Below, one piece after another: positions 14,286-16,201 of a stretch of 64,000 nucleotides of DNA (position 1 is the first letter of the stretch; the number at the start of each line of letters is the position of its first letter). The DNA is from Escherichia phage RCIP0319: the sequence record PV464738.1, one strand, 5' to 3'. The notes below the pieces were generated by a model. It searched no databases, had not been told where the DNA came from, and worked only from the letters and a program-made list of their open reading frames with translations. Position numbers and translations under genes: made by a program.

Positions 14286-14753
14286 ATGATTAACGTTTCC
14301 GGTTTTGGCGCTTCGATTCGTTTAGTGGCATCAAACACTTTTCCAAATGGTGTAACTCTTTCTGATTTCGCAGATGATGCTGATCCGATTGACGCGCCTG
14401 ATCTTCAAATCTCTGAAGCAGCAATGGGATTGAACGGTGACCTGGTAGTCTGGAACCGCGCCAACCCTCTTGAAGTAGGCGTCAACATCATCCCTACTTC
14501 TGAAAGCGATGTGAACTTAGATGTTCTGGCGGCGGCTAACCGTGTAGGCAAGCGCAAGAACTCTGCGAAAGACGTGATCACCCTTATTCTGACCTACCCT
14601 TCTGGCATGGTCATCACACTGAACAAGGGAACTTTGACTACTGGTTCAGTAATTCCTGGCATCCAGTCTCAGGGTCGTGTAAAAACACGTCAATATCGCT
14701 TTAAGTTTGAGAACGTAGTCAAAACTGGCGTGAGCAACCAAGAGATTTTATAA
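14286..14753 (+). CDS. Putative tail tube protein (paralog 1)
   Basis: 155 aa; N-terminus MINVSGFGASIRLVA nearly identical to the ORF at 15704 (MVNISGFGTSIRIVA); lies after the sheath gene. Confidence 0.5.
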   Translation: MINVSGFGASIRLVASNTFPNGVTLSDFADDADPIDAPDLQISEAAMGLNGDLVVWNRANPLEVGVNIIPTSESDVNLDVLAAANRVGKRKNSAKDVITLILTYPSGMVITLNKGTLTTGSVIPGIQSQGRVKTRQYRFKFENVVKTGVSNQEIL

Positions 14754-15082
14754 TGTATCAAATACCACTTGACAGCGTACCTAACCAGAATATCAGCTTT
14801 AACGTTGACGGGGCTTATTGGCAGCTGCACATATTCGCCGCAATTGAGCACATGTGCGCAGATGTTTACCGCAATGGCGAATTGTTGATTCAAGGGGTGC
14901 GCTGTTTTGGTGGTATACCAATGGTGCCTTATAAATATCTCATGATTGGGTACGGCAATTTTATTTTTGACAGCACACCCGATTATGAGAATTTTAACTC
15001 TGGCGGCTGTAATTTATATTACATGTCAGAATCTGAGTTGGCTGAATTCCAGAAAACTGCTGAAGCGGAGTTTGCAATTTGA
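14753..15082 (+). CDS. Hypothetical protein
   Basis: 109 aa ORF with overlapping stop/start. Confidence 0.4.
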   Translation: MYQIPLDSVPNQNISFNVDGAYWQLHIFAAIEHMCADVYRNGELLIQGVRCFGGIPMVPYKYLMIGYGNFIFDSTPDYENFNSGGCNLYYMSESELAEFQKTAEAEFAI

Positions 15083-15435
15083 CAACTCTAACGATTGAAG
15101 TTAATGATAACAACGACCTGTTTCTGCCTGATGGAAGAAATTTGAATATTCTGTCAGGAGAAAAGGCCATGGTACAAGTTATCAAGGCAGCGCATCAAAT
15201 GCGACTTGGTGAAGACTTGTACGATGTTGAAAACGGAGTCGATTATTTAGGCACTGTTTTCAAATCGCCCGTTGATGAAGACGGTGCGAGAAAGTCGATT
15301 GCAGATGCTATTCTGAAGAAAGCAGACGTTGCCGGAATCGACTCATTGACTGTCACCATCCAAAACGGTATTCTTGGATTCACCGCTGAAGTGGTGACTA
15401 TTTATGGCGAACGTATAAAGGTGAGTAATCAATAA
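15079..15435 (+). CDS. Hypothetical protein
   Basis: 118 aa ORF, overlap-coupled. Confidence 0.4.
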   Translation: MTTLTIEVNDNNDLFLPDGRNLNILSGEKAMVQVIKAAHQMRLGEDLYDVENGVDYLGTVFKSPVDEDGARKSIADAILKKADVAGIDSLTVTIQNGILGFTAEVVTIYGERIKVSNQ

Positions 15436-15701
15436 TGGCACAAGTAATTCATTTTGCTAATGGCGTCATGAAATTCGGCGAAAAATTTGAAGACGCATCG
15501 GAATTATTCAAAAAGACTTCAAACCATGTTGCGGAGAAGAAAGAACAGGTTGAAGAGAAGGCGGTAGAATCGAAAGTTGATTTTGATTCAATGAGCGTCT
15601 CTGAATTGAAGGCTTATGCAAAGGAACATGAGATTGACATCAAAGGTCTTTCTTATAAGGATGAAATTCTTGCAGCAGTTAAATCTGCATCTGCGGAGTA
15701 A
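15435..15701 (+). CDS. Hypothetical protein with C-terminal SAP/Rho-N-like helix-extension-helix motif
   Basis: 88 aa; C-terminal MSVSELKAYAKEHEIDIKGLSYKDEILAAV resembles Rho-N/SAP-type motifs. Confidence 0.4.
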   Translation: MAQVIHFANGVMKFGEKFEDASELFKKTSNHVAEKKEQVEEKAVESKVDFDSMSVSELKAYAKEHEIDIKGLSYKDEILAAVKSASAE

Positions 15702-15703
15702 AC

Positions 15704-16201
15704 ATGGTCAATATTAGTGGATTTGGCACAAGCATTAGAATTGTCGCTCTCCAATCTTTTCCTGTTGGGCTGAATATCAGTTCTTTGTCTGATGACCAGG
15801 ATTCGCTAATTATTGAGGAAGTTGAATCAGTAGGCTATCAACTTACTTACGACGGCGGCATTTGTATTTATGACAAGGCCGCCGTCGTTCGCGTATCCAT
15901 TGCGGTGATCCCAAACACTGAAGATGACATAAACCTAAAGCTTTTGCTTTCCGCTCGTAAAGGCGGATTCAAGTGGCTTCCTATACAGGATGTCACATCA
16001 ATGCTTATTACATATCCTGATGGCGGCAGAGTAGCATTTTCGAACGGGACCATCATCAGCGGTCCGCTTGGCGACTCCATTGAGCAATCCGGTCGTCGCA
16101 AGACAAACAGATATACATTCGTGTTTGCCAGCTACGGCGGCGCACAGAGCACATCGCAAATTGCAAAAGGCGTGGTACAAAGCATATTGGGGTCAATTTA
16201 A
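15704..16201 (+). CDS. Putative tail tube protein (paralog 2)
   Basis: 165 aa; shares N-terminal and internal motifs with the ORF at 14286. Confidence 0.5.
   Translation: MVNISGFGTSIRIVALQSFPVGLNISSLSDDQDSLIIEEVESVGYQLTYDGGICIYDKAAVVRVSIAVIPNTEDDINLKLLLSARKGGFKWLPIQDVTSMLITYPDGGRVAFSNGTIISGPLGDSIEQSGRRKTNRYTFVFASYGGAQSTSQIAKGVVQSILGSI

What the first reader, a model, noticed from the sequence alone, without database searches (positions are those of the whole stretch)
14286..16201. Two paralogous tail-tube-like genes separated by three small ORFs
Seen in sequence: the ORFs at 14286 and 15704 share near-identical N-termini (MINVSGFGASIRLVA and MVNISGFGTSIRIVA) and further motifs, indicating an old duplication within the tail block. 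Inference: could encode tube plus tube-initiator, or alternative tube subunits.
Basis: seen in the sequence. Interest (0 to 1): 0.4.

Follow-up and report, generated by a model that had tools for sequence, protein, structure and literature searches.

The report
Phage tail tube and baseplate-tube paralogs
The two similar genes are the main tail-tube protein of an E. coli myophage (genus Wifcevirus) and its ancient duplicate that forms the single tube ring inside the baseplate, a pair already seen by cryo-EM in the related Pseudomonas phages E217 and Pa193, so the finding is real but ordinary.

Summary
The ORFs at 14286-14753 (155 aa) and 15704-16201 (165 aa) align without gaps over 143 residues (33% identity, E 2e-32), not only at the N-terminus. 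Three small ORFs lie between them.

The window is a Wifcevirus E. coli myophage, 97-98% identical to EC150, WFH and FEC19. ORF1 matches the solved tail tube of Pseudomonas phages Pa193 gp33 and E217 gp32 (E 2e-48 and 6e-42). ORF2 matches the solved "baseplate tube" or "tail tube-B", Pa193 gp37 and E217 gp36 (E 1e-52 and 2e-49).

In E217 the tube is 34 stacked hexamers. Tube-B is one hexameric ring at the distal end that docks the gp37/gp38 ring, the hub and the tip.

The three intervening ORFs are the helical-bundle adaptor, the sheath initiator and a variable 88-aa protein of unknown role. The whole tail and baseplate-cap block is colinear with E217.

The duplication predates the split of Wifcevirus, Myosmarvirus, Carpasinavirus, Pbunavirus and a Burkholderia phage. 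Both copies are under strong purifying selection (dN/dS about 0.01).

The "tube plus tube-initiator" reading is supported; "alternative tube subunits" is not. This is already known and of low interest. The public label "tail fiber protein" is a misnomer.

The parts
12700..14238 (+). Tail sheath (512 aa, GTG start), ortholog of E217 gp31 / Pa193 gp32
   Evidence: PDB 8fvg_A E 5.8e-166, aligned 1-512 to 1-504. Pfam DUF3383 at 399.7 bits. PHROG 205 tail sheath.
14286..14753 (+). Paralog 1: major tail tube protein (155 aa), ortholog of E217 gp32 / Pa193 gp33
   Evidence: PDB 9b42_M 'gp33 Tail tube' E 1.9e-48 and 8fuv_T E217 gp32 E 5.8e-42, against 3-5e-25 to the baseplate-tube chains. PF22764 at 202.5 bits. 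Lies directly after the sheath gene. Falls in the tube-A clade. dN/dS 0.012.
14753..15082 (+). Baseplate adaptor ('helical bundle', 109 aa), ortholog of E217 gp33 / Pa193 gp34
   Evidence: PDB 9b45_A E 3.9e-26 and 8env_G E 7.5e-26. Pfam Pam3_gp18 at 64 bits.
15079..15435 (+). Sheath initiator (118 aa, TTG start), ortholog of E217 gp34 / Pa193 gp35 (T4 gp25-like)
   Evidence: PDB 9b45_G 'gp35 Sheath initiator' E 4.6e-23, aligned from residue 1. PHROG 120. Phage Mansfield annotates the same long form, with an HHpred match to T4 gp25.
15435..15701 (+). 88-aa protein of unknown role, in the position of E217 gp35 / Pa193 gp36, which is absent from both virion models
   Evidence: No PDB hit. PHROG 10541, unknown function. 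Only sub-threshold SAP/HeH-like Pfam hits. Highest dN/dS in the block, 0.11. Shares only an N-terminal F-A-N-G-V-like motif with the genes in the same position in other genera.
15704..16201 (+). Paralog 2: baseplate tube / 'tail tube-B' (165 aa), ortholog of E217 gp36 / Pa193 gp37
   Evidence: PDB 9b45_M 'gp37 Baseplate tube' E 1.1e-52 and 8env_I E217 gp36 E 2.2e-49, against 1e-21 and 3e-16 to the tube chains. PF22764 at 180.4 bits. Falls in the tube-B clade at 100% bootstrap. Carries a C-terminal extension of about 20 aa shared with all tube-B orthologs. dN/dS 0.010 with no amino-acid change against WFC.
16201..16734 (+). Ripcord-1 (177 aa), ortholog of E217 gp37 / Pa193 gp38; docking partner of the tube-B ring
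   Evidence: PDB 9b45_S E 7.6e-20 and 8eon_A E 2.1e-19. Pfam Gp38_E217 at 42.2 bits.
16734..17294 (+). Ripcord-2 (186 aa), ortholog of E217 gp38 / Pa193 gp39
   Evidence: PDB 9b45_V E 5.1e-27. Pfam Gp38_E217 at 243 bits. Weak paralogy to ripcord-1, E 2e-5.
19901..20773 (+). Tail hub (290 aa), ortholog of E217 gp41 / Pa193 gp42
   Evidence: PDB 8eon_E E 3.1e-85.
21331..22083 (+). Tail tip / spike, ortholog of E217 gp43 / Pa193 gp44
   Evidence: PDB 9b45_g E 7.4e-55 and 8eon_F E 8.9e-55.

Best explanation
The two genes are an ancient paralogous pair with separate jobs in one contractile tail. ORF1 (14286-14753) is the major tail tube protein. It polymerises as stacked hexameric rings inside the sheath and forms the DNA channel. 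ORF2 (15704-16201) is the baseplate tube, or 'tail tube-B'. Six copies form one ring coaxial with the tube at its distal end. The upper face of that ring continues the tube. The lower face is the platform for the pseudo-hexameric ripcord-1/ripcord-2 ring (16201-17294). That ring steps the symmetry down from six-fold to three-fold for the trimeric hub (19901-20773) and tip (21331-22083). By its position, the tube-B ring is the layer on which ORF1 polymerisation starts during tail assembly, so it acts as the tube initiator. The three genes in between encode two baseplate adaptors (helical bundle and sheath initiator) and a small variable protein not seen in virions. What is shown here: paralogy, orthology to solved chains, colinearity, antiquity and purifying selection. 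What is taken from the cryo-EM of relatives: position, copy number and contacts. What is inferred: the initiator role in assembly, and the same architecture in this phage.
For: The two ORFs show full-length paralogy (33% identity over 143 aa, E 2e-32). Their best matches among solved structures are reciprocal: ORF1 hits the tube chains 9b42_M and 8fuv_T (E 2e-48, 6e-42), and ORF2 hits the baseplate-tube chains 9b45_M and 8env_I (E 1e-52, 2e-49). The E217 paper (PMC10329688) reports 34 stacked gp32 hexamers. It describes gp36, 'or tail tube-B', as similar to gp32 (RMSD 3.6 A), forming a hexameric ring concentric to gp32 and providing the attachment surface for three gp37/gp38 heterodimers. The Pa193 paper (PMC11456595) gives the same picture for gp37, the 'baseplate tube'. 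Every neighbouring gene matches its E217/Pa193 counterpart in the same order. The tube, adaptor, sheath initiator, small ORF, tube-B, ripcord-1, ripcord-2 order recurs in Serratia MyoSmar, Xanthomonas XcP1, Pseudomonas PB1 and Burkholderia Karil-Mokiny-1. 379 phage records hold 735 matching places, about two per genome. The tree splits tube-A from tube-B. The lumen residues named for E217 gp32 (Asp27, Arg125, Lys127) map to D33, R131 and K133 and are identical in both window paralogs, as expected if both line one channel. The paralogs differ most at residues 41-60, which correspond to the extended beta-turn that makes the subunit contacts in gp32, at 81-100, and at the C-terminus. This fits different neighbours in the assembly. 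dN/dS is about 0.01 for both. Published work already annotates Wifcevirus structural genes from the Pbunavirus cryo-EM structure (PMC11990801).
Against: There is no structure, proteomics or genetics for this phage or any Wifcevirus in the material I could reach, so position and copy number are transferred from relatives that are 52-55% identical. The 'initiator' role is not demonstrated even in E217 or Pa193. My own structure predictions failed (pLDDT 29-30), so they add no independent fold evidence. The PDB entry for E217 gp36 carries the name 'Ripcord gp36', while the Pa193 paper uses 'ripcord' for the next two proteins, so the nomenclature is inconsistent.
Confidence: 0.93

Rival explanations
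1. The two proteins are alternative or interchangeable tube subunits that both polymerise along the tail, either mixed or used under different conditions or hosts.
For: They share fold family, length and lumen residues. Sequence alone cannot fix stoichiometry.
Against: In both solved relatives the ortholog of ORF2 is one ring in the baseplate cap and the ortholog of ORF1 makes all 34 tube rings. The two orthogroups have stayed distinct, each with its own conserved type-specific residues and, for tube-B, a C-terminal extension, across at least five genera. Both are always present together.
Confidence: 0.03
2. They are tail fibre proteins, as RefSeq and Pharokka-style annotations of related phages call them.
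For: PHROG 2420 and Pfam PF22764 both carry the name 'tail fiber protein (gp32)'. Phages kaset, WFH, FEC19 and PB1 are annotated that way.
Against: The name is an inherited label. The Pfam family is built on E217 gp32, which the solved structure shows to be the tube. The chains that match are deposited as 'Tail tube' and 'Baseplate tube'. The E217 fibre is gp46. Phage Mansfield independently annotates ORF1's ortholog as the tail tube by HHpred.
Confidence: 0.01
3. ORF2 is a recent, redundant or decaying duplicate with no distinct function.
For: None beyond the fact of duplication.
Against: Identity between the paralogs is only 31-33%, while ORF2 is 48-60% identical to its orthologs in other genera. 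ORF2 has no amino-acid change across 48 nucleotide differences against WFC. It is 100% identical at protein level in ECML-117, WFH and Bas101.
Confidence: 0.01

Closest known systems
Pseudomonas phage E217 gp32 (tail tube) and gp36 ('tail tube-B'); PDB 8fuv, 8env, 8eon; PMC10329688
   Same: The Pfam family, gene order and pair of paralogs are the same, with the same three genes between them and the same downstream gp37/gp38, hub and tip. E-values are 6e-42 for ORF1 vs gp32 and 2e-49 for ORF2 vs gp36. The lumen residues D27, R125 and K127 are conserved.
   Different: The host differs (E. coli rather than P. aeruginosa), as does the genus (Wifcevirus rather than Pbunavirus). Protein identity to the closely related PB1 orthologs is only 52-55%. 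The tape measure is shorter here, 726 aa against about 860 aa in PB1, so the tube probably has fewer rings; that is an inference. The small gene before tube-B is unrelated in most of its length.
Pseudomonas phage Pa193 gp33 (tail tube) and gp37 ('baseplate tube'); PDB 9b42, 9b45; PMC11456595
   Same: These are the best-scoring solved homologs of both ORFs (E 1.9e-48 and 1.1e-52). The baseplate cap is described the same way: a gp37 hexamer coaxial with the tube that carries the gp38/gp39 heterohexamer.
   Different: The differences are the same as for E217. The Pa193 alignment to ORF2 reaches residue 162 of 165 and so covers the C-terminal extension.
Tube-like baseplate layers of other contractile systems: T4 gp19 with gp54/gp48; Afp1 with Afp5 in the Serratia antifeeding prophage; PVC Pvc1 with Pvc5 (from my own knowledge, not tested here)
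   Same: The design principle is shared: a bulk tube protein plus one or more tube-fold paralogs that form the first ring or rings in the baseplate and adapt six-fold to three-fold symmetry.
   Different: No sequence-level membership was found. Pfam returned only PF22764 for both ORFs, and no T4 gp19 or Phage_tube family. The relationship is one of fold and function only.

Membership tests
Pfam PF22764 (E217_Gp32; tube-fold family of PB1-like myophages) | Score above the curated gathering threshold, with the whole domain covered | tested here: met
   ORF1 scores 202.5 bits over profile positions 1-143 of 144. ORF2 scores 180.4 bits over positions 2-143 of 144. The cut-off is 27.
Major tail tube orthogroup (E217 gp32 / Pa193 gp33), for ORF1 | Closer to the solved tube chains than to the baseplate-tube chains, and in the tube clade of the tree | tested here: met
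   E 1.9e-48 and 5.8e-42 to the tube chains, against 3.4e-25 and 4.8e-25 to the baseplate-tube chains. 55% identity to PB1 tube against 39% to PB1 tube-B, and clusters with the tube orthologs.
Major tail tube orthogroup (E217 gp32 / Pa193 gp33), for ORF1 | Gene lies immediately downstream of the sheath gene | tested here: met
   The sheath gene ends at 14238 and ORF1 starts at 14286. The arrangement is the same in PB1, MyoSmar, XcP1, Karil-Mokiny-1, IFTN1 and Bm1.
Major tail tube orthogroup (E217 gp32 / Pa193 gp33), for ORF1 | Lumen-lining charged residues Asp27, Arg125 and Lys127 of E217 gp32 | tested here: met
   The gapless alignment of query residues 7-150 to chain residues 1-144 places them at D33, R131 and K133 of ORF1.
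Major tail tube orthogroup (E217 gp32 / Pa193 gp33), for ORF1 | Polymerises as tens of stacked hexameric rings inside the sheath | not testable with these tools
   This needs cryo-EM or quantitative virion proteomics of this phage.
Baseplate tube / tail tube-B orthogroup (E217 gp36 / Pa193 gp37), for ORF2 | Closer to the solved baseplate-tube chains than to the tube chains, and in the tube-B clade | tested here: met
   E 1.1e-52 and 2.2e-49 to the baseplate-tube chains, against 1.4e-21 and 3.2e-16 to the tube chains. The tube-B clade has 100% bootstrap.
Baseplate tube / tail tube-B orthogroup (E217 gp36 / Pa193 gp37), for ORF2 | Gene lies immediately upstream of the ripcord-1/ripcord-2 pair, separated from the tube gene by the adaptor and sheath-initiator genes | tested here: met
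   Window order established. The order is identical in PB1, MyoSmar, XcP1 and Karil-Mokiny-1.
Baseplate tube / tail tube-B orthogroup (E217 gp36 / Pa193 gp37), for ORF2 | C-terminal extension of about 20 residues beyond the tube core (G-A-Q-S/T ... hydrophobic tail) | tested here: met
   ORF2 residues 144-165, YGGAQSTSQIAKGVVQSILGSI, align with the tails of all five tube-B orthologs and are absent from the tube orthologs. The alignment to Pa193 gp37 covers ORF2 residues 1-162.
Baseplate tube / tail tube-B orthogroup (E217 gp36 / Pa193 gp37), for ORF2 | A single hexameric ring between the last tube ring and the gp37/gp38 ring; nucleates tube assembly | not testable with these tools
   Position and copy number are known only for E217 and Pa193. 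The assembly role is untested anywhere that I could find.
Phage tail fibre proteins (the public annotation of these genes) | Trimeric fibrous receptor-binding protein attached outside the baseplate | tested here: not met
   All solved homologs are tube or baseplate-tube chains. The E217 fibre is a different protein, gp46. The label comes only from the names of PHROG 2420 and PF22764.
T4 gp19/gp54/gp48 or Phage_tube Pfam families | Sequence match to those profiles | tested here: not met
   A Pfam scan at E up to 0.1 returned only PF22764 for both ORFs. The resemblance is at the level of fold and function.

The most novel reading that the evidence does not exclude
The most novel reading the evidence leaves open concerns how far Wifcevirus follows E217. 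The tube-B ring might have diverged in use, for example forming more than one layer. Its conserved C-terminal tail might be the element that positions the tape measure or the sheath initiator and so sets where tube and sheath polymerisation start. That would make this pair a tractable E. coli system for testing how a tube paralog is limited to one ring. Nothing in the sequence points to a departure from the E217 architecture.
Probability: 0.04. Interest if true: 0.35.

Novelty: already known. Interest (0 to 1): 0.08.

Why it matters
It matters little for discovery. The tube and baseplate-tube pair, its position in the virion and its neighbours are described at near-atomic resolution for E217 (2023) and Pa193 (2024). 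A 2025 paper already states that Wifcevirus structural genes were annotated from that structure. The practical value is in annotation. Most public records of these phages call four tube-fold genes 'tail fiber protein' or 'hypothetical protein'. Some also truncate the sheath and sheath-initiator genes. The correct names are tail tube, baseplate tube, ripcord-1 and ripcord-2. Because Wifcevirus infects E. coli, the pair could serve as a convenient genetic system for asking why one tube paralog polymerises and the other stops at one ring.

Tried and rejected
1. Structure prediction. Both AlphaFold2 jobs were run with only the two window paralogs as the alignment and gave unusable models (mean pLDDT 29.1 and 30.5). 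No fold search was run on them. A deeper alignment would have required the large protein search.

2. Literature search for 'E217 + ripcord + gp36' found nothing. The E217 paper does not use 'ripcord' in its text; that name appears only in the PDB entry and in the Pa193 paper.

3. Promoter and terminator scan of 12600-17800. Promoter-like sites were at chance level: 10 found against 9.4 expected. Terminator-like sites were modestly above chance: 10 against 4.7, sd 2.2. None separates the two paralogs in a way that would explain their different stoichiometry.

4. I asked whether the 88-aa ORF between the paralogs is a conserved family across genera. BLASTP found no significant similarity; only a short N-terminal motif is shared by eye.

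5. I considered and rejected chance similarity, a recent duplicate or pseudogene, alternative tube subunits, and tail fibre (see the rival explanations).

Full report
**What is in the sequence**

The + strand of 12700-22083 is one uninterrupted run of tightly packed or overlapping genes. One is 14286-14753 (155 aa, MINVSGFGASIRLVA...). The other is 15704-16201 (165 aa, MVNISGFGTSIRIVA...). Three ORFs lie between them: 14753-15082, 15079-15435 (TTG start) and 15435-15701.

BLASTP of the pair gives 33% identity and 61% positives over 143 residues, with no gaps, at E 2e-32. Both proteins match Pfam PF22764 (E217_Gp32) end to end, at 202.5 and 180.4 bits against a cut-off of 27. Both also match PHROG 2420.

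**Where the window comes from**

The 5-kb block 12700-17712 is 97-98% identical to Escherichia phages EC150, RCIP0363, WFH, FEC19, ECML-117 and others. All 28 matching records are E. coli or Shigella phages of genus Wifcevirus. The record for phage kaset places the genus in Lindbergviridae.

**What the two proteins are**

A sequence search of all PDB chains gives reciprocal answers.
- ORF1 is most similar to Pa193 gp33 'Tail tube' (9b42_M, E 1.9e-48) and E217 gp32 (8fuv_T, E 5.8e-42). It matches the baseplate-tube chains only at about 4e-25.
- ORF2 is most similar to Pa193 gp37 'Baseplate tube' (9b45_M, E 1.1e-52) and E217 gp36 (8env_I, E 2.2e-49). It matches the tube chains only at 1e-21 and 3e-16.

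The E217 paper describes 34 stacked hexameric rings of gp32 inside 204 sheath subunits. It describes gp36 '(or tail tube-B)' as similar to gp32 (RMSD 3.6 A), forming a hexameric ring concentric to gp32. That ring provides the attachment surface for three gp37/gp38 heterodimers, which in turn hold the trimeric hub gp41 and tip gp43 (PMC10329688). The Pa193 paper gives the same picture for gp37, which has an RMSD of 4.2 A to the tube (PMC11456595).

**The neighbours**

Each gene around the pair matches the corresponding solved E217/Pa193 chain, in the same order:
- sheath, aligned 1-512 to 1-504, E 6e-166
- 14753-15082, helical-bundle adaptor, E217 gp33 / Pa193 gp34, E 4e-26
- 15079-15435, sheath initiator, E217 gp34 / Pa193 gp35, E 5e-23
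- 16201-16734, ripcord-1, E 8e-20
- 16734-17294, ripcord-2, E 5e-27
- 19901-20773, hub, E 3e-85
- 21331-22083, tip, E 7e-55

Only the 88-aa ORF at 15435-15701 has no solved homolog. Its positional equivalents (E217 gp35, Pa193 gp36) are the gene numbers missing from both published lists of virion proteins.

**Age and spread of the duplication**

A tblastn search with ORF2 finds 379 phage records holding 735 places, about two per genome. The hosts include Pseudomonas, Escherichia, Burkholderia, Serratia, Xanthomonas, Vibrio, Pantoea and Erwinia.

I fetched the locus from Serratia MyoSmar, Xanthomonas XcP1, Pseudomonas PB1 and Burkholderia Karil-Mokiny-1. All have the same order: sheath, tube, adaptor, sheath initiator, small ORF, tube-B, ripcord-1, ripcord-2, one further gene, tape measure.

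In an alignment of 13 proteins the window's tube is 43-55% identical to the other tubes, and its tube-B is 48-60% identical to the other tube-Bs. Identity across the two types is 26-39%. A neighbour-joining tree recovers the tube-B clade at 100% bootstrap and the split between the types at 97%. The duplication therefore predates the divergence of these genera.

Two outliers are informative:
- Burkholderia phage Bm1 has a divergent tube-B-like gene (L007:6132-6629) with the same C-terminal tail, placed just before the large ORF in the tape-measure position.
- The 39-kb Bordetella phage IFTN1 shows only one copy detectable at this sensitivity.

**Selection**

Phage WFC is about 90% identical in nucleotides. 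Against it ORF1 has one amino-acid change and ORF2 has none, each with about 46 synonymous differences. This gives dN/dS of 0.012 and 0.010. The 88-aa ORF is the least constrained gene of the block, at 0.11.

**How the two copies differ**

The lumen residues named for E217 gp32 (Asp27, Arg125, Lys127) map through the gapless alignment to D33, R131 and K133. These residues are identical in the two window paralogs, as expected if both line one channel.

Cross-type identity is highest at residues 1-10 (0.71). It is lowest at residues 41-60 (0.08-0.18), at 81-100 and at the C-terminus. Residues 41-60 correspond to the 'extended beta-turn' (gp32 residues 35-56) that the E217 paper says carries many of the inter-subunit hydrogen bonds. 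Tube-B orthologs also share a C-terminal extension of about 20 residues that is absent from tubes. These are the places where different assembly partners would be read out; that link is my inference.

**Mechanism, with levels of support**

Shown here: paralogy, orthology to the solved chains, colinearity, antiquity and purifying selection.

Transferred from cryo-EM of relatives that are 52-55% identical: ORF1 forms the many stacked rings of the tube. ORF2 forms one ring at the distal end, between the tube and the ripcord ring, and it stays on the tube tip after contraction.

Inferred: during assembly the ORF2 ring is the template on which ORF1 polymerises, so it is the 'tube initiator'. This follows from its position and, from my own knowledge, from analogy with T4 gp54/gp48 and Afp5. 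Neither paper tests this.

**Comparison with what is known, and novelty**

This is the E217/Pa193 tube and tube-B pair in an E. coli relative. A 2025 paper states that 'based on clear homology' the Pbunavirus cryo-EM structure was used to annotate Wifcevirus structural genes (PMC11990801). The finding is real and correctly interpreted, but already known.

**What did not work**

Both AlphaFold2 runs used only the two window sequences as the alignment. They gave pLDDT of about 30 and are unusable. I did not run the large homolog search needed for a deeper alignment, because experimental structures of close orthologs already settle the fold.

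Noticed in passing
window 14245-14262 (sheath-tube intergenic gap); also L002:2055-2123, L003:1828-1882, L004:1879-1941, L005:2041-2122, L006:4939-5003, L007:3951-4003: A perfect GC stem-loop (GCCGCC-GTAACT-GGCGGC) sits between the sheath stop and the tube ribosome-binding site. 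A GC-rich hairpin occupies the same gap in every related phage I fetched, in six genera or groups, but its sequence is not conserved. In WFC only the loop differs. In Bordetella IFTN1 it is followed by a T-run and looks like a terminator. In the window's own 61-nt context the fold is only modestly better than shuffles (z -1.9). It could be an attenuator or an mRNA-stability element, and this was not tested.
   Followed up: partly
window 16201-16734 and 16734-17294: A second, more diverged paralog pair lies directly downstream: ripcord-1 and ripcord-2 (23% identity, E 2e-5). These are orthologs of E217 gp37/gp38, which form the pseudo-hexameric ring under tube-B. The E217 paper says these proteins and the hub also have the tube fold, so the block holds at least five tube-fold genes.
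   Followed up: partly
window 14286-17294; L001, L004, L005, L008: Public annotations (RefSeq WFH, WFC, FEC19 and PB1; kaset; Karil-Mokiny-1) call the tube, tube-B, ripcord-1 and ripcord-2 all 'tail fiber protein'. The label is inherited from the names of PHROG 2420 and 2580 and of Pfam PF22764, and it contradicts the solved structures.
   Followed up: yes
window 12700 (sheath start) and 15079 (sheath-initiator start): Some public records truncate these genes. Phage kaset starts the sheath 99 nt later. Phages kaset and WFC start the sheath initiator at an internal ATG, giving 88 aa. The long forms (GTG 12700, 512 aa; TTG 15079, 118 aa) align from residue 1 with the solved Pa193/E217 chains, and phage Mansfield annotates the long forms.
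   Followed up: yes
window 15435-15701: This 88-aa ORF between the sheath initiator and tube-B has the highest dN/dS in the block (0.11). It has no PDB homolog and only sub-threshold SAP/HeH-like hits in its C-terminal half. The genes at the same position in PB1 (142 aa), XcP1 (150 aa), MyoSmar (81 aa) and Karil-Mokiny-1 (71 aa) share only an N-terminal F/Y-A-N/G-G-V-like motif, followed by unrelated low-complexity tails. The protein is not in the E217 or Pa193 virion models, so it may be an assembly factor.
   Followed up: partly
L007:6132-6629 (Burkholderia phage Bm1); L006 (Bordetella phage IFTN1): Bm1 keeps a divergent tube-B-like gene (27-34% identical to the other tube-B orthologs) with the same C-terminal tail, but it is relocated to just upstream of the large ORF in the tape-measure position. 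The 39-kb Bordetella phage has a tube of the same family but no second copy detectable by tblastn.
   Followed up: partly
literature: PMC10329688 and PMC11456595: The two cryo-EM papers disagree on which adaptor binds what. The E217 paper says gp33 (helical-bundle homolog) binds the C-terminal ~40 residues of gp37 and gp38, which are the ripcords. The Pa193 paper says gp35 (sheath initiator) binds the C-termini of 'gp37 and gp38', which in Pa193 numbering are the baseplate tube and ripcord-1. The PDB also names E217 gp36 'Ripcord'. The partner of the tube-B C-terminal tail therefore cannot be read from the text alone.
   Followed up: no
window 17716-19896: The tape measure / lytic transglycosylase protein is 726 aa here, against about 860 aa in PB1 (L004, gene 24155-26737 of the record). 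This suggests a somewhat shorter tail and fewer tube rings than the 34 of E217. That is a rough inference.
   Followed up: no
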